Source: a virus. From it: a DNA stretch of 17,070 nt. Shown piece by piece: positions 1 to 17,070 of this stretch. The stretch is from positions 1 to 17,070 of IMG/VR virus record IMGVR_UViG_3300045988_030628. The stretch is one strand, 5' to 3'. A program made the position numbers and the translations under genes. Below the pieces are notes generated by a model. That model ran no database searches. It had not been told where the DNA came from and saw only the letters and a list, made by a program, of their open reading frames with translations. The first letter of the stretch is position 1. Every line of letters begins with the position of its first letter.

Positions 1-20
1 CCCCATTAAAGTTCAAACCC
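1..20. repeat. Left inverted terminal repeat (20 bp), genome terminus
   Basis: Bases 1-20 (ccccattaaagttcaaaccc) are the exact reverse complement of bases 17051-17070 (gggtttgaactttaatgggg). Identity breaks down after 20 bp, with only a shared ccagtt a few nt further in. Terminal ITRs together with a protein-primed polymerase indicate a complete linear genome. Confidence 0.95.
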
Positions 21-11351: not shown

Positions 11352-11352
11352 G

Positions 11353-11469
11353 TATATCTACTCATGCGATTAACATTGAGAACATAGGATAGCACTCTTG
11401 AAAGTATAGAGCCTGTGTTACTTGTCGTTTTCGCTGAACGCAATGATTAACACATGAGTTATAGATATA
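11353..11469 (+). ncRNA. Candidate prohead/packaging RNA (pRNA-like three-way junction)
   Basis: A 24-bp interrupted closing helix forms between 11353-11378 and 11441-11469, as 8 + 6 + 1 + 4 + 5 bp with small bulges. It encloses two hairpins:
- Long hairpin 11381-11419: 8 bp including a U11385-G11415 wobble valid only on the plus strand, a 6-nt bulge AUAGCA, a 4-bp stem and a 9-nt loop.
- Short hairpin 11426-11440: cgtt/aacg stem with loop uucgcug.
The element starts 2 nt after the ATPase stop and ends just before the terminator. Confidence 0.45.
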
Positions 11470-14304: not shown

Positions 14305-14324
14305 GAAAAATCACCCTCTTGTCT

Positions 14325-14355
14325 AAAAAAGCGTGTACCGATTAAAGTACACGCT
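14325..14355 (-). terminator. Intrinsic terminator/attenuator between the SSB-like gene and the TP-polymerase genes
   Basis: On the minus strand: AGCGTGTAC-tttaatcg-GTACACGCT (9-bp stem) followed by TTTTTT. It lies 15 nt after the stop of the 118-aa gene and ~20 nt before the TP RBS. Confidence 0.85.
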
Positions 14356-14369
14356 GTTAATATTACTAG

Positions 14370-14726
14370 TTACTCAAGACTTTCAACATCTAACTCACAG
14401 TTGATAAAGTCACGCCCTGCTTTCGTTTTGCCTGACGTCTTAATGATTGTATACTGTTTATCTTTCATGATATTTGAAATATCTCTGATTGAACGTTTGA
14501 ATGTTGACGACTGACATGAGTATACTTTCTTTTCCGGTGTGATCACTGAAAGAATATCCGTAATTTCACCAGTTGACTCTTTTGTATCCTCAAATGTAAG
14601 AATACCGTCAACTGTAATGTGCGTTCCATCTGGAACGTCTTTCATTGAAATGATTGATGGTGCAATCGTCATAAGATACTGCTCAACTTCTGAAAATTCT
14701 CTGCTACAATTTTTAATTTCTACCAT
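14370..14726 (-). CDS. Single-stranded DNA-binding protein candidate (phi29 gp5-like)
   Basis: 118 aa. It occupies the gene-5 position between p6-like and TP. Segments VPDGTHITV, ...VYSCQSSTFKRSIRDISNI... and IIKTSGKTKAGRDFINCEL parallel recalled phi29 p5 segments (LPDGTIIE, ...LYSAISKTVAEAASDLIDL..., VVQGTSSKGNVFFSLQL). RBS AAGAGG. Confidence 0.55.
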   Translation of the reverse strand: MVEIKNCSREFSEVEQYLMTIAPSIISMKDVPDGTHITVDGILTFEDTKESTGEITDILSVITPEKKVYSCQSSTFKRSIRDISNIMKDKQYTIIKTSGKTKAGRDFINCELDVESLE

Positions 14727-14748: not shown

Positions 14749-15051
14749 TTACTGTTCTGTTACGTTTTCTTCTGTCACTGCTCTCGGTGGTAAGACTTTT
14801 GAGTGTTCAATGAAGTTCTGTTCTGTCATTCCGTAGAGTGTTTCAATTTCTTCCTTGTCAACAATGTGTACTGGTTTCAATGTTTCCGTTTCAAGAACTT
14901 CTTTCACTTTCTTGAGAAGCTTTTCATCGTCCTTGTAAGTACGTGGAACTACTACAGACTTGTTACAAGGTTCTCCTGTCTCAATGTCTAAGCACATTAC
15001 GTTGACTTTTGTTGTGATGATTGTTCTTGTTACCATTGGTACTCTTGCCAT
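14749..15051 (-). CDS. p6-like histone-like dsDNA-binding protein, paralogue A
   Basis: 100 aa, about 35-40 percent identical by eye to the 95-aa product of 15718-16005 (MAR..MVTRT...VM..D..T.E...TY..E.LLKK...T.K.V.I...E.L.GMTE..FI...VLPPR). It sits upstream of SSB as gene 6 does in phi29. There is remote resemblance to recalled p6 (..REITKTTVNV.., ..YELPVEKFLEVATV..). The C-terminal tail is acidic. Confidence 0.5.
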   Translation of the reverse strand: MARVPMVTRTIITTKVNVMCLDIETGEPCNKSVVVPRTYKDDEKLLKKVKEVLETETLKPVHIVDKEEIETLYGMTEQNFIEHSKVLPPRAVTEENVTEQ

Positions 15052-15121
15052 GTTTTTTCTTCCTCTCTTTCTTTATTTTTAAAAAACGTCAAAATATAGT
15101 TTAGTGCTATAAAGCACTAGA

Positions 15122-15212
15122 GTAGGTGACAGGGATTGAACCTGTTTCACGTGAATGAGCGATGATAGGATTTATTTAAGATTCACGCATTTTACCAATA
15201 AACTACACCTAC
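15122..15212 (-). tRNA. tRNA-like gene: canonical acceptor, D and T arms, CUU (Lys-type) anticodon loop, but a 21-nt insertion in the anticodon arm (non-canonical, possibly non-decoding)
   Basis: Minus strand: GTAGGTG-TA-GTTT-ATTGGTA-AAAT-G-CGTGA-ATCTTAA-[ATAAATCCTATCATCGCTCAT]-TCACG-TGAA-ACAGG-TTCAATC-CCTGT-CACCTAC.
- 7-bp acceptor stem.
- D loop with GG.
- T loop TTCAATC.
- T before and A after the CTT triplet.
- No encoded CCA.
- A 6-bp hairpin (15102-15119, tagtgc/gcacta) follows. Confidence 0.5.
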
Positions 15213-15220
15213 TAAGGGGG

Positions 15221-15256
15221 TAGGTGGCACAGTGGATTGAAAGTCTGCACCACCTA
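15221..15256 (-). ncRNA. Acceptor/T-arm-like minihelix upstream of the tRNA-like gene
   Basis: Minus strand: TAGGTGG-TG-CAG-ACTTTCAATCCA-CTG-TG-CCACCTA. The 7-bp stem nearly repeats the tRNA-like acceptor stem. The loop shares the 8-mer TTCAATCC with the tRNA-like T arm. Confidence 0.45.
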
Positions 15257-15302
15257 TGGCAAACGTAACTCGAATTTTTGTTTATTATCTTGCTACAATT
15301 AT

Positions 15303-15331
15303 ATAATAGCATATGACGATCTAAATGTCAA
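15303..15331 (-). promoter_or_regulatory. Strong SigA-type promoter driving the minihelix, tRNA-like element, p6-like A and SSB
   Basis: On the minus strand: TTGACA (15326-15331), 17-nt spacer, TGcTATTAT (-10 at 15303-15308). The -35 context ATACTTGACA resembles the right-end promoters (GTACTTGACA). It begins 3 nt after the stop of the 85-aa gene. Confidence 0.75.
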
Positions 15332-15334
15332 GTA

Positions 15335-15592
15335 TTATTTGAATTTTTTCCGAACAAAATACTTATCCAAAATGAACTGCTTATATTGATTTTTTATCGT
15401 GTCTGATACGATTTTCGCTGTCATATATGAACTTGCTCGTAATTCAATACGCGGTATAGCTGTGTGCCAACATAAACAGTGATTTACATAAATGTCCACC
15501 ACAAGAGTACCGTTTACCACTGATATGGCTACATCATCCTTGATGTCCTCTTTAATCATTTCCTTTACTAACTTTACATAGTGTTTACTCAT
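15335..15592 (-). CDS. Hypothetical early protein (85 aa, basic C-terminus)
   Basis: ATG at 15592 with RBS AAAGAGGGAA. The ORF-track 100-aa version starts upstream without an RBS. No recognisable motif. Confidence 0.6.
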   Translation of the reverse strand: MSKHYVKLVKEMIKEDIKDDVAISVVNGTLVVDIYVNHCLCWHTAIPRIELRASSYMTAKIVSDTIKNQYKQFILDKYFVRKKFK

Positions 15593-15629
15593 TTTTGTTC
15601 CCTCTTTCTTTCTGGTTTTATTTTGATTA

Positions 15630-15705
15630 GTTTCCACACCTTGTTGGTGCTAATGGGTGAACAGCGTTGAAACTGTAATCGTGCCTAACCACGCACCCTT
15701 GTTAG
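15630..15705 (-). repeat. Structured intergenic repeat, copy 1 (three-way junction plus flanking hairpin; D-armless tRNA-like)
   Basis: About 90 percent identical to 16041-16115.
- Core 15655-15698: outer stem GGGTG/CACCC.
- Enclosed hairpins: ACAG-cgttgaaa-CTGT and CGTG-cctaac-CACG.
- Flanking hairpin: CACC-ttgtt-GGTG (15637-15649). Confidence 0.8.
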
Positions 15706-15717
15706 TTTTGACTAACT

Positions 15718-16005
15718 TTATGCATTTTTAGTATTTCTAGGTGGAAGGACTGTAGCGTATCTGATAAAGTCCTCTTCTGTCATTCCAAGAAGTAAATCCT
15801 CAACCTTAGTACTGTTGATATTTACAAGCTTGAATGTATCGGTCTGGAAAAGCTTCTGTAGCTTTTTGAGCAGAATTTCGTTAGTGTCGTATGTGCCACC
15901 GATAGTGTACTCACGTATCTGTACTTCTGCCGTTGTGACATCAATCGTCATAACTTCTGCCGTTGTCTGGGTTACTGTCCTTGTTACCATTTTTTCTCTT
16001 GCCAT
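15718..16005 (-). CDS. p6-like histone-like dsDNA-binding protein, paralogue B
   Basis: 95 aa from ATG 16005 (RBS AAGAGGT). The 126-aa ORF-track version extends through the structured repeat and is rejected. Paralogous to 14749-15051. Confidence 0.5.
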   Translation of the reverse strand: MAREKMVTRTVTQTTAEVMTIDVTTAEVQIREYTIGGTYDTNEILLKKLQKLFQTDTFKLVNINSTKVEDLLLGMTEEDFIRYATVLPPRNTKNA

Positions 16006-16040
16006 AGTAATACCTCTTCTTTCTATTGCGTTGTTTATTG

Positions 16041-16115
16041 GTTTCTGCACCATGTAGGTGCTAATGGGCGGACAGCGTTGAAACTGTAATCGTGCCAACC
16101 ACGCGCCCTTGTTGT
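16041..16115 (-). repeat. Structured intergenic repeat, copy 2
   Basis: Core 16066-16108: outer stem GGGCG/CGCCC, a compensatory change relative to copy 1. It encloses ACAG-cgttgaaa-CTGT and CGTG-ccaac-CACG. The flanking hairpin is GCACC-atgta-GGTGC (16047-16061). Confidence 0.8.
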
Positions 16116-16856: not shown

Positions 16857-16890
16857 TTTGTTTCCACCTTTTTCTTTTCTTTGTACCTTT

Positions 16891-16919
16891 ATTATATCAT
16901 ATGGTTACTTGTTTGTCAA
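16891..16919 (-). promoter_or_regulatory. Right-end early promoter P2 (perfect consensus)
   Basis: On the minus strand: TTGACA (16914-16919), 17-nt spacer, TATAAT (16891-16896), followed by AAAGGTACAAAGA. Confidence 0.85.
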
Positions 16920-16984
16920 GTACTTTCTTGTACTTTTTTATTTTTTCTTTTTTATCACTTCCGATCTTCTTTCTTTGTACCTTT

Positions 16985-17013
16985 ATTATAGCACAGGTGC
17001 TGGCACTTGTCAA
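16985..17013 (-). promoter_or_regulatory. Right-end early promoter P1 (perfect consensus)
   Basis: On the minus strand: TTGACA (17008-17013), 17-nt spacer, TGcTATAAT (-10 at 16985-16990), followed by the same AAAGGTACAAAGA. It lies 94 bp upstream of P2 and ~38 bp from the ITR. Confidence 0.85.
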
Positions 17014-17050
17014 GTACTTGTGTGAAAAAATTTTGGGGGAAACTGGTATC

Positions 17051-17070
17051 GGGTTTGAACTTTAATGGGG
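17051..17070. repeat. Right inverted terminal repeat (20 bp), genome terminus
   Basis: Exact reverse complement of bases 1-20. Confidence 0.95.

What the first reader, a model, noticed from the sequence alone, without database searches (positions are those of the whole stretch)
15122..15212. Cloverleaf tRNA-like gene with a 21-nt insertion in the anticodon arm, in a 17-kb protein-primed phage
The minus strand folds into a near-textbook tRNA:
- 7-bp acceptor stem GTAGGTG/CACCTAC.
- D arm GTTT-ATTGGTA-AAAT with the GG dinucleotide.
- 5-bp T stem with loop TTCAATC.
- 5-bp anticodon stem CGTGA/TCACG.
- A 7-nt stretch ATCTTAA that has the T33 / CTT / A37 layout of a tRNA-Lys(CUU) loop.

However, 21 nt (ATAAATCCTATCATCGCTCAT, plus 15155-15175) separate that loop from the 3' strand of the anticodon stem. 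This gives either a 28-nt loop or a 7-bp stem with a 24-nt loop.

Bacterial tRNA introns are group I ribozymes of hundreds of nt, so this does not look like a conventional intron. Genomes of this size class rarely carry tRNAs at all.

Possible roles, all inference:
- a non-decoding tRNA mimic used as an RNase P/Z processing signal;
- a decoy or replacement against anticodon nucleases, several of which (e.g. PrrC) target tRNA-Lys;
- a cofactor in replication or packaging.
Basis: partly seen in the sequence, partly recalled or inferred. Interest (0 to 1): 0.8.

Follow-up and report, generated by a model that had tools for sequence, protein, structure and literature searches.

The report
tRNA-like punctuation marks in phage operon
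This small gut phage carries a tRNA look-alike that cannot decode; it is the largest of several such elements between its early genes, which most likely tell the host's tRNA-trimming enzymes where to cut and stabilise the phage's messenger RNAs.

Summary
At 15121-15212 (-) there is a cloverleaf that Rfam's tRNA model scores at 50.4 bits (threshold 29). A 7-bp anticodon stem closes a 24-nt loop.

It is not a one-off. All ~80 related phi29-like gut phages carry a tRNA-like element at the same place, just upstream of a p6-like DNA-binding gene. Acceptor stem and T arm are constant and covary. The anticodon region runs from absent (50 nt total) to >100 extra nt, and one lineage has a normal tRNA-Gln.

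It is also the largest of a series. The window has two further 44-nt mini elements (16065-16108, 15654-15698) between early genes. Relatives have 1-5 each:
- 1.29 per kb on the sense strand of the early region, against 0.05 per kb on the antisense strand.
- 89-94% are followed within 5 nt by a hairpin, then an SD and start codon.
- None encodes CCA, and trailers are U-rich.

Best reading (inferred; no RNA-end data): these are non-decoding tRNA-like processing signals, like plant-mitochondrial t-elements. Host RNase P and RNase Z would cut there, leaving each downstream mRNA capped by a 5' hairpin.

The strongly constrained insert loop remains unexplained and may mark an extra, trans-acting role.

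The parts
15303..15331 (-). Sigma-70-type promoter: TTGACA, 17 nt, TATTAT with a TG extension. The predicted transcription start is near 15296.
   Evidence: 11 of 12 consensus matches. Equivalent promoters sit at the same distance in relatives.
15265..15296 (-). 5'-terminal stem-loop of the leader (GTAGC...GTTAC), starting at the predicted +1.
   Evidence: The stem covaries across the family: GTAAC/GTTAC, GTAAT/ATTAC, GAATC/GATTC. The loop evolves at about the neutral rate, pi 0.22.
15257..15264 (-). Conserved single-stranded linker GTTTGCCA (family motif ACGTT(T)GCCA), ending in GCCA directly before hairpin 1. Function unknown.
   Evidence: pi 0.047 against 0.28 at 4-fold sites. GCCA is conserved in most subgroups. 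No complementary target in the genome.
15221..15256 (-). Hairpin 1: a 12-bp stem TAGGTGGTGCAG/CTGTGCCACCTA with a 12-nt loop containing TTCAATC. It looks like an acceptor plus T-arm minihelix copy of the tRNA-like element.
   Evidence: z=-3.2 for the inner part of the hairpin, 15218-15253. The stem covaries and the loop is neutral, pi 0.35. Its resemblance to its own acceptor stem holds in 3 subgroups only.
15213..15220 (-). C-rich spacer CCCCCTTA; it would be the 5' leader at the predicted RNase P site (between 15213 and 15212).
   Evidence: pi 0.022. C-rich in most subgroups.
15121..15212 (-). The tRNA-like element. Acceptor 15206-15212 / 15122-15128; D arm 15189-15203; anticodon stem 15181-15187 / 15150-15156; T arm 15129-15145; discriminator T at 15121; no encoded CCA.
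15157..15180 (-). 24-nt loop that replaces the 7-nt anticodon loop (CTTAAATAAATCCTATCATCGCTC). Predicted to be unstructured, but constrained at the sequence level.
   Evidence: 3' part TCATCGCTC pi 0.019, 5' part pi 0.073, middle pi 0.24 (neutral is 0.28). Unpaired in the MFE fold.
15102..15119 (-). Hairpin 2 (TAGTGCT-TTAT-AGCACTA), starting 1 nt after the discriminator. Predicted to be the 5' cap of the processed mRNA.
   Evidence: Present 1-3 nt after the acceptor 3' strand in 73 of 76 loci, with at least 10 unrelated stem sequences.
14749..15051 (-). p6-like dsDNA-binding protein gene A, with SD AGAGAGG about 10 nt upstream. It is the first gene after the element.
   Evidence: PHROG 6370, dsDNA binding protein. 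Used to fetch 80 related loci.
16065..16108 (-). Mini tRNA-like element 1: 5-bp acceptor GGGCG/CGCCC, a D-like hairpin CGTG-GTTGG-CACG, a T-like arm ACAGT-TTCAAC-GCTGT, and no anticodon arm.
   Evidence: and 83 (z=-2.3 with its trailing hairpin).
16047..16061 (-). Hairpin GCACC-TACAT-GGTGC, 3 nt after mini element 1.
   Evidence: Covaries to GTACC/GGTAC in relatives.
15718..16005 (-). p6-like paralogue gene B (MAREKMVTRTV...), 42% identical to gene A. It follows mini element 1.
15701..15716 (-). Hairpin GTTAG-TCAAAA-CTAAC, just after the stop codon of gene B and 2 nt before mini element 2.
15654..15698 (-). Mini tRNA-like element 2: GGGTG/CACCC acceptor, otherwise nearly identical to element 1.
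   Evidence: Covaries GGGTG/CACCC <-> GGGCG/CGCCC in relatives.
15636..15650 (-). Hairpin GCACC-AACAA-GGTGT, 3 nt after mini element 2.
15335..15592 (-). Small early gene C (85 aa, unrelated to p6). It follows mini element 2.

Best explanation
The 92-nt element is a non-decoding tRNA-like RNA. It is the most complete member of a set of tRNA-derived elements that punctuate the early transcripts of this clade of phi29-like gut phages.

Shown:
- The parts that every copy keeps are the acceptor stem, the T arm with the GGTTCRAnnCC signature and, usually, a D-like hairpin with GG in its loop. These make up the tRNA 'top half' and elbow.
- Each element sits on the sense strand in a gap between early cistrons or in an operon leader.
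- Each lacks an encoded CCA and has a U-rich trailer.
- Each is followed within a few nucleotides by a covarying hairpin, then an SD and a start codon.

Inferred:
- Host RNase P cuts at the 5' side of the acceptor stem (in the window between 15213 and 15212).
- Host RNase Z cuts just after the discriminator (15121).
- This splits the early transcript into units. The downstream mRNA, here for the abundant p6-like protein and the replication genes, then begins with hairpin 2. That hairpin would protect its monophosphorylated 5' end from 5'-end-dependent decay.
- Hairpin 1 would protect the 3' end of the upstream RNA.

Because decoding is not needed, the anticodon arm has been free to be deleted or rebuilt in different lineages. 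In the window's lineage it became a 7-bp stem with a 24-nt loop. That loop's sequence is under purifying selection for a reason not yet known.
For: 1. Conservation at one position. All 80 loci fetched through the p6-like protein have the module upstream of that gene. A strict script finds a perfect 7-bp acceptor plus 5-bp T stem in 70 of 84 sources, with element lengths from 50 to 163 nt. Rfam's tRNA model scores relatives with 22-, 55- and 61-nt inserts at 39.6-50.8 bits, and a canonical tRNA-Gln(UUG) in L074 at 70.8 bits.

2. Covariation.
- Acceptor/T stack: 10 of 12 pairs change on both sides.
- Window subgroup: 99.8% of cells paired, with compensatory changes in three helices.
- Mini elements: 9 of 14 pairs change on both sides, including the D-like hairpin, which the search never required.
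- G-U pairs occur, which fits an RNA read from the minus strand.

3. A series, not a single element.
- The window has 3 elements on the minus strand, all within 15121-16108, and only one spurious in-gene hit on the plus strand.
- Across the family there are 194 sense-strand elements in 150 kb of early region (1.29/kb), against 21 in 398 kb on the antisense strand (0.053/kb).

4. Context fits processing.
- 94% have a hairpin within 5 nt downstream, against 2 of 21 antisense controls. With a 5-bp minimum the figures are 89% against 28% at random positions.
- 98% have an SD and a start codon within 110 nt.
- Hairpin 2 starts 1-3 nt after the acceptor in 73 of 76 loci.

5. RNase Z logic. None of 168 distinct elements encodes CCA. 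Trailer positions +1 and +2 are U in 68% and 61% of cases, against a 29% background. In Firmicutes, RNase Z cleaves CCA-less precursors immediately after the discriminator (PMC8549757).

6. Precedent.
- Plant-mitochondrial t-elements have the same GGTTCRANYCC signature and give mRNA ends through RNase P/Z (PMC1920247).
- RNase P also processes phage M3 RNA, phage C4 antisense RNA and polycistronic mRNAs (PMC11143913).
- 5' secondary structure stabilises bacterial mRNAs (PMC3997798).
Against: - There are no RNA-end, expression or cleavage data. The cleavage step is inference.
- A stable hairpin 0-2 nt after the discriminator might hinder RNase Z rather than help it.
- The commonest mini element has a 5-bp acceptor and a 6-nt T-like loop (TTCAAC). 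Its coaxial stack is therefore 10 bp, not the canonical 12.
- The large element has its own strong promoter about 85 nt upstream, so cistron separation alone does not explain why it is kept there.
- A pure processing signal does not explain the strong sequence constraint on the 24-nt loop (pi 0.019 in its 3' part), on the GCCA linker or on the C-rich spacer. Nor does it explain the structured, lineage-specific anticodon-domain expansions.
- Upstream protective hairpins are only modestly enriched (73% against 53%).
- The 100% pairing in alignment A1 is partly circular, because pairing was a search criterion.
Confidence: 0.6

Rival explanations
1. The elements act in cis without being cut. They could be folding insulators, translation enhancers or binding platforms for a host or phage protein that recognises the tRNA elbow, or antitermination signals comparable to lambda nut or HK022 put sites. 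In each case they would set the expression of the next cistron.
For: The regular layout of element, hairpin, about 30-50 nt, SD, start codon before many early genes. The constrained single-stranded linker and spacer could be protein-binding sites.
Against: The parts that are conserved are exactly the canonical T-loop signature plus an acceptor stem with no CCA and a U-rich trailer. These are the determinants of tRNA-processing enzymes, and a generic hairpin would serve for insulation. No candidate RNA-binding protein was identified.
Confidence: 0.15
2. The large element, once excised, is a trans-acting structural RNA. One possibility is a functional analogue of the phi29 prohead (packaging) RNA, which has never been found outside Bacillus phages. 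In that case the variable anticodon domain would be the part that contacts phage proteins.
For: It lies in the largest noncoding stretch of the genome and is driven by a near-consensus promoter. No Rfam pRNA match exists anywhere in the genome although the phage has a small gp16-type terminase. The insert loop is sequence-constrained, and other lineages carry structured, covarying expansions.
Against: Several relatives have only a 50-53-nt minihelix at this position (for example L027, L083 and CS229P1). One lineage has an ordinary tRNA-Gln. No pair of mutually complementary loops or three-way junction of the pRNA kind was seen. The element is co-transcribed with replication genes and is not a separate unit near a genome end.
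Confidence: 0.1
3. The large element is a decoy or shield against host tRNA-targeting defences such as anticodon nucleases. Its anticodon domain would diversify in an arms race.
For: The anticodon region is hypervariable between lineages while the rest is conserved. The window's loop begins with a U33-CUU-A37-like heptamer, ATCTTAA, that is well conserved within the subgroup.
Against: Many copies lack any anticodon arm. Within the subgroup the most constrained segment is TCATCGCTC, not the CTT triplet. Within a lineage the domain is under purifying selection, with no sign of diversifying selection. No defence-related gene context was seen.
Confidence: 0.08
4. It is a genuine decoding tRNA whose 21-24-nt insert is an intron removed before use.
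For: The full-length Rfam tRNA match and the ARAGORN call. The heptamer ATCTTAA has the layout of an anticodon loop.
Against: - The insert is far too short for a bacterial group I intron.
- The fold shows no bulge-helix-bulge motif.
- The insert is more conserved than neutral sites, the opposite of what a spliced spacer would show.
- ARAGORN's anticodon call changes among near-identical relatives.
- Homologous elements have no anticodon loop at all.
Confidence: 0.03
5. It is a decaying tRNA pseudogene, or a chance cloverleaf, with no function.
For: L007 has lost both the D-loop GG and the TTC of the T loop. The weak D stem.
Against: Compensatory substitutions in every helix, strand specificity, positional conservation across about 80 genomes, and diversity 3-15 times below synonymous sites.
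Confidence: 0.02

Closest known systems
t-elements of plant mitochondria (tRNA-like processing signals; PMC1920247)
   Same: Both are non-canonical tRNA-like folds that keep the acceptor stem and the GGTTCRANYCC arm, lie next to coding regions and cannot decode. The plant elements are shown or proposed to be cut by RNase P and RNase Z to make mRNA 5' and 3' ends, and the cox1 mRNA 5' end is generated at a t-element.
   Different: The plant elements are organellar, scattered and few. Here the elements are in a bacteriophage, arrayed before successive early cistrons, tightly coupled to a following hairpin, and include a large copy with a rebuilt anticodon domain. Cleavage is demonstrated in plants and only inferred here.
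tRNA punctuation of animal mitochondrial polycistronic transcripts
   Same: tRNA-shaped units between cistrons whose excision by RNase P and RNase Z releases the mRNAs.
   Different: Mitochondrial punctuation uses functional decoding tRNAs. Almost all copies here are non-decoding.
RNase III processing sites between phage T7 early genes (own knowledge)
   Same: A phage uses structured intercistronic RNA signals and a host ribonuclease to cut its early polycistronic mRNA and leave protective hairpins on the products.
   Different: T7 uses a different enzyme and a different structure (long imperfect hairpins). There the protective stem stays at the 3' end of the upstream product.
MHV68 TMERs and MALAT1-mascRNA (own knowledge; MALAT1 also in PMC8457004, listed)
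   Same: A non-decoding tRNA-like module that recruits RNase P or RNase Z to release an adjacent RNA. In the TMERs a hairpin directly follows the tRNA-like unit.
   Different: These are eukaryotic or herpesviral, with other downstream products (pre-miRNAs, or a lncRNA 3' end).
Phage RNase P substrates that are not tRNAs: P1/P7 C4 antisense RNA and phi80 M3 RNA (PMC11143913)
   Same: Phage-encoded RNAs matured by host RNase P out of a longer transcript.
   Different: These are single regulatory RNAs, not a repeated punctuation system, and they lack a canonical T arm.
phi29 prohead RNA (Rfam RF00044)
   Same: A structured noncoding RNA of a phi29-like phage, expressed from a strong early promoter.
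   Different: No covariance-model match even at E<=10, a different fold, a different genomic position, and no paired kissing loops.

Membership tests
tRNA (Rfam RF00005) | Covariance-model score above the gathering threshold over the full model | tested here: met
   50.4 bits against 29, model positions 1-71
tRNA (Rfam RF00005) | 7-bp acceptor stem, D arm with GG, 5-bp T stem with a T-psi-C-type loop | tested here: met
   Maintained by compensatory changes.
tRNA (Rfam RF00005) | 5-bp anticodon stem closing a 7-nt loop with a definable anticodon | tested here: not met
   The loop is 24 nt (28 nt with a 5-bp stem). ARAGORN's anticodon call is unstable among relatives.
tRNA (Rfam RF00005) | Aminoacylation and use in decoding | not testable with these tools
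   Needs biochemistry. Decoding is structurally implausible with a 24-nt loop.
t-element-type tRNA-like processing signal | Non-canonical tRNA-like fold that keeps the acceptor stem and the conserved GGTTCRANYCC arm | tested here: met
   G G T T C. A.. C C is invariant in 38 distinct main elements (the search pattern partly fixed the T and A loop positions). The structure covaries.
t-element-type tRNA-like processing signal | Located on the sense strand at the borders of coding regions | tested here: met
t-element-type tRNA-like processing signal | mRNA ends coincide with the ends of the element; cleavage by RNase P and RNase Z | not testable with these tools
   There are no transcript data. 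Indirect support only: no encoded CCA in 0/168 elements and U-rich trailers.
phi29-type prohead RNA (RF00044) | Match to the family covariance model | tested here: not met
   No hit in the whole genome at E<=10.
phi29-type prohead RNA (RF00044) | Three-way junction with two mutually complementary loops that covary | tested here: inconclusive
   None was seen by inspection of the alignments and folds, but no dedicated search was run.
Intron-containing tRNA (group I or bulge-helix-bulge) | Group I ribozyme core (hundreds of nt) or a bulge-helix-bulge motif at positions 37/38 | tested here: not met
   The insert is 21-24 nt and unstructured in the MFE fold. There is no Rfam intron hit.
tmRNA | tRNA-like domain plus a tag reading frame | tested here: not met
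   ARAGORN finds no tmRNA.

The most novel reading that the evidence does not exclude
Beyond serving as a cutting mark, the excised large element may be a trans-acting RNA in its own right. Its lineage-specific anticodon domain, which is constrained in sequence or structure, might bind a phage or host partner. One example would be a tRNA-shaped replacement for the prohead RNA that non-Bacillus phi29-like phages are not known to have. Another would be a mimic that engages a host tRNA-binding factor or defence system.
Probability: 0.2. Interest if true: 0.85.

Novelty: new variant of a known kind. Interest (0 to 1): 0.62.

Why it matters
If host RNase P and RNase Z really cut at these elements, this would be tRNA punctuation in a bacteriophage. 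That gene-expression strategy is known from mitochondria. Here it would be built from miniaturised, non-decoding tRNA mimics of about 40-45 nt.

It would matter in four ways:
- It would explain the 'tRNA genes' that annotation pipelines sporadically call in some tiny phi29-like genomes.
- It would show how far a tRNA can be reduced or rebuilt and still be kept by selection.
- It would add a second host nuclease system, besides RNase III as used by T7, that phages use to shape their early mRNAs.
- It would offer compact natural parts for multiplexed RNA release in Firmicutes, the natural counterpart of synthetic tRNA-gRNA arrays.

A cultured relative, Clostridium phage CS229P1 on C. symbiosum, makes the idea directly testable.

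Tried and rejected
1. Antisense targets. Complements of the constrained loop segment (ATGAGCGATGA) and of the conserved linker occur in the genome no more often than in shuffles.

2. C-rich spacer as an anti-Shine-Dalgarno sequence. RNAalifold proposed weak pairing with the ribosome-binding site. By eye, however, each subgroup's spacer matches its own SD poorly. The apparent insert/SD correlation (CCTATC with GAGAGG, CCTCTC with GTGAGG) leaves one mismatch either way and follows phylogeny. Dropped.

3. An attenuator switch. The terminator-like alternative hairpin CACCTAC-CCCCTTA-GTAGGTG depends on hairpin 1 resembling the acceptor stem. That resemblance holds in only three subgroups and is marginal overall (permutation p about 0.04-0.05). 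It is kept as unexplained and is not used in the model.

4. Conventional pRNA. There is no Rfam hit and no other sizeable noncoding region besides the 214-nt right end, which holds two promoters.

5. Intron or decoding tRNA. Rejected on size, lack of structure, the conservation pattern and the relatives.

6. Standard detectors on relatives. ARAGORN finds the element in only 10 of 80 loci. Rfam found nothing in L001-L003 even at E<=1, although L001 has a clear 93-nt copy. Absence of a call is therefore not absence of the element.

7. Literature searches for phage tRNA-like punctuation found nothing relevant.
Full report
**1. The observation**

- Acceptor stem GTAGGTG/CACCTAC.
- A weak D arm, GTTT-ATTGGTA-AAAT.
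- An anticodon stem CGTGA/TCACG that extends to 7 bp around a 24-nt loop.
- T arm ACAGG-TTCAATC-CCTGT.
- Discriminator T, with no encoded CCA.

Three tools support the fold. Rfam's tRNA model matches end to end at 50.4 bits (gathering score 29), with 24 nt where 3 are expected. ARAGORN calls a tRNA with an intron. The thermodynamic fold reproduces three of the four helices, with z=-2.8.

The window is a complete phi29-like genome. It has a perfect 20-bp terminal inverted repeat, a family-B polymerase, collar, capsid and tail genes, and a small gp16-type terminase.

**2. It is a family feature**

The element lies between a near-consensus extended -10 promoter (11 of 12 matches) and a gene for a p6-like double-stranded-DNA-binding protein. 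Using that protein I fetched 80 related viral contigs of 5-20 kb, most of them 16-17 kb.

All of them show the same layout upstream of the gene:
- promoter;
- a stem-loop that starts at the predicted +1 and covaries;
- a conserved linker ACGTT(T)GCCA;
- hairpin 1;
- a C-rich spacer;
- a tRNA-like element;
- hairpin 2;
- SD and start codon.

A strict script finds a perfect 7-bp acceptor plus 5-bp T stem in 70 of 84 sources. Element length takes the values 50, 52, 62, 70, 73, 79-80, 84, 90-95, 100, 116-118 and 161-163 nt.

The constant parts are the acceptor stem and the T arm. The columns G G T T C. A.. C C are invariant in 38 distinct sequences, although the search pattern partly fixed the T and A loop positions.

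The anticodon region is deleted, short, or rebuilt into lineage-specific hairpins, some of which covary themselves. Rfam still scores copies with 22-, 55- and 61-nt inserts at 39.6-50.8 bits. One lineage (L074/L075) has an ordinary 71-nt tRNA-Gln(UUG) at 70.8 bits.

Standard detectors miss most copies. ARAGORN finds 10 of 80.

**3. Covariation**
- Acceptor/T stack across the family: 10 of 12 pairs change on both sides. Pairing itself was a search criterion there, so only the diversity of pair types is informative.
- Window subgroup, aligned by MAFFT alone: 99.8% of cells pair, against 26-49% in shifted registers. The acceptor, anticodon and T helices each have a compensated pair.
- Hairpins 1 and 2 and the 5' stem also covary.
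- G-U pairs are frequent, which fits an RNA read from the minus strand.

**4. The insert is constrained**

Within the subgroup, nucleotide diversity is 0.28 at 4-fold degenerate sites of the adjacent gene. It is 0.35 in the loop of hairpin 1 and 0.22 in the loop of the 5' stem.

Diversity is far lower in four places:
- 0.019 in the 3' part of the insert (TCATCGCTC);
- 0.073 in the 5' part of the insert;
- 0.022 in the spacer;
- 0.047 in the linker.

So the loop is neither filler nor an intron-like spacer. I found no partner for it within the genome.

**5. It is one of a series**

The 80-nt gap at 15638-15717 contains a second, smaller element, and a genome-wide scan found a third. The two are 16065-16108 and 15654-15698, both on the minus strand.

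Each has four features:
- a 5-bp acceptor (GGGCG/CGCCC and GGGTG/CACCC, a compensated difference between the two copies);
- a 4-bp D-like hairpin with GG in its loop;
- a T-like arm, ACAGT-TTCAAC-GCTGT;
- no anticodon arm.

Each is followed 3 nt later by a hairpin, then roughly 40 nt, an SD and a start codon. The downstream genes are a p6-like paralogue (42% identical to the first) and an unrelated 85-aa gene. Hairpin 1 itself looks like a 12-bp acceptor plus T-arm minihelix with TTCAATC in its loop.

The window has three such elements on the minus strand, all within 15121-16108, and one spurious in-gene hit on the plus strand.

Across the family:
- 194 sense-strand elements in 150 kb of early region (1.29 per kb), against 21 in 398 kb on the antisense strand (0.053 per kb).
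- 46 of 84 sources have three elements and one has five.
- The commonest size is 40-49 nt.
- About ten sense-strand hits lie downstream of the gene. All are long and have non-canonical arms.

In the mini elements, all three helices are 100% paired and 9 of 14 pairs change on both sides. This includes the D-like hairpin (CGTG/CACG, AGTG/CACT, AGCG/CGCT), which the scan never required.

phi29 has no such element. The cultured Clostridium phage CS229P1 has one, at 14356-14405 on the minus strand.

**6. Context points to processing**
- 94% of elements have a hairpin within 5 nt downstream, against 2 of 21 antisense controls. With a 5-bp minimum the figures are 89% against 28% at random positions.
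- Hairpin 2 starts 1-3 nt after the acceptor strand in 73 of 76 loci, with at least ten unrelated stem sequences.
- 98% have an SD and a start codon within 110 nt.
- None of 168 distinct elements encodes CCA. The first two trailer positions are U in 68% and 61% of cases, against a 29% background.

In Firmicutes, RNase Z cleaves CCA-less precursors directly after the discriminator (PMC8549757). That CCA blocks the enzyme and that downstream uracils activate the B. subtilis enzyme is my own recollection of the literature; I did not verify it here.

Secondary structure at the 5' end stabilises bacterial mRNAs (PMC3997798).

**7. Mechanism proposed**

The steps below are inferred.
- RNase P cuts before the acceptor stem and RNase Z cuts after the discriminator.
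- The upstream RNA is left ending shortly after a hairpin.
- The downstream mRNA is left beginning with a hairpin that shields its monophosphorylated 5' end.
- The tRNA-like piece is released.

The p6-type protein is needed in very large amounts in phi29 (own knowledge). A stabilised, separately tuned mRNA for it would therefore make sense.

Because only the top half of the tRNA is needed, the anticodon arm has drifted, shrunk or been rebuilt.

I put this at 0.6. No RNA ends have been mapped. The hairpin sits very close to the predicted RNase Z site. The commonest mini element has a 10-bp rather than a 12-bp stack. The constrained loop, linker and spacer are left unexplained.

**8. Rivals**
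- A cis-acting element that works without cleavage: 0.15.
- A trans-acting RNA such as a prohead-RNA analogue: 0.10. There is no Rfam pRNA hit, some relatives have only a 50-nt minihelix, and no kissing-loop pair was seen.
- An anticodon-nuclease decoy: 0.08. Many copies have no anticodon arm.
- An intron-containing decoding tRNA: 0.03.
- A pseudogene: 0.02.

**9. Comparison with known systems**

The nearest described kind is the plant-mitochondrial t-element. It is a non-canonical tRNA-like fold with the same GGTTCRANYCC arm, cut by RNase P/Z to make mRNA ends (PMC1920247).

Functionally it also resembles:
- mitochondrial tRNA punctuation;
- T7's RNase III sites;
- the herpesviral TMERs;
- MALAT1-mascRNA.

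RNase P is already known to process some phage RNAs and some polycistronic mRNAs (PMC11143913).

I found no description of arrays of miniature tRNA mimics punctuating a phage operon. A 2024 review only remarks that some phi29-like clusters have predicted tRNAs (PMC11476376).

I therefore class this as a new variant of a known kind, of moderate to good interest. Its main open question is what the constrained anticodon-domain insert does.

Noticed in passing
window 1-20 and 17051-17070: A perfect 20-bp inverted terminal repeat, CCCCATTAAAGTTCAAACCC. The window is therefore a complete linear genome.
   Followed up: yes
window 15221-15256 versus 15122-15128 / 15206-15212; loci L059/L063 and L064/L070: The hairpin 1 stem resembles the element's own acceptor stem in three subgroups. 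Two changes look concerted: T4->C4 in L063 and G6->A6 in L070, each in both stems. Other subgroups show no such resemblance, and the permutation p is about 0.04-0.05. The cause could be gene conversion between paralogous minihelices or a real alternative pairing.
   Followed up: partly
window 15206-15226 (-): An alternative hairpin, CACCTAC-CCCCTTA-GTAGGTG, followed by a T-rich tract is flagged as terminator-like. It competes with both hairpin 1 and the acceptor stem, and it forms in silico when the 5' strand of hairpin 1 is left out.
   Followed up: partly
window 15257-15264 (-) and the same position in relatives: The conserved motif ACGTT(T)GCCA ends in GCCA directly before hairpin 1, and N+CC(C) directly follows hairpin 1. 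Together they look like the 3' ends of former tandem tRNAs. Function unknown.
   Followed up: partly
window 14749-15051 and 15718-16005 (-): Two paralogous p6-like dsDNA-binding genes (42% identical), each preceded by a tRNA-like element plus a hairpin.
   Followed up: yes
window 16857-17070 (-): Two tandem near-consensus promoters at the right end, TTGACA...TATAAT, each followed by the same AAAGGTACAAAGAA start region.
   Followed up: no
window 14305-14369 (-) and 11352-11400: An intrinsic terminator (AGCGTGTAC...GTACACGCT plus a T run) lies between the 118-aa gene and the next gene. A bidirectional terminator (AACAGAGGG...CCCTCTGTT) lies where the plus-strand terminase gene meets the minus-strand genes.
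   Followed up: no
L074 1773-1843 and L075: In one distant lineage the same slot, still flanked by the two hairpins, holds a canonical tRNA-Gln(UUG) (70.8 bits). This may be the ancestral state.
   Followed up: partly
L007 (window-subgroup relative): The D-loop GG and the T-loop TTC are both lost (T loop ATCATAA) while all stems are kept. This would be a joint loss of the two partners of the elbow contact.
   Followed up: no
L056 and L060, about 236 nt upstream of the gene: The tRNA-like element is separated from the p6-like gene by a degenerate second copy of the hairpin/SD/start region and a decayed T-arm-like sequence. This indicates a local duplication.
   Followed up: no
subgroups B2/B3 (for example L026, L029, L054): The 116-118-nt elements share a conserved core, TCATGCG-hairpin-CGAGGTC(A/G)nG(C/G)ACAC, within the expanded anticodon domain. 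Subgroup B1 keeps an 8-nt bulge, CTGGTCAG, next to a covarying hairpin. Their roles are unknown.
   Followed up: partly
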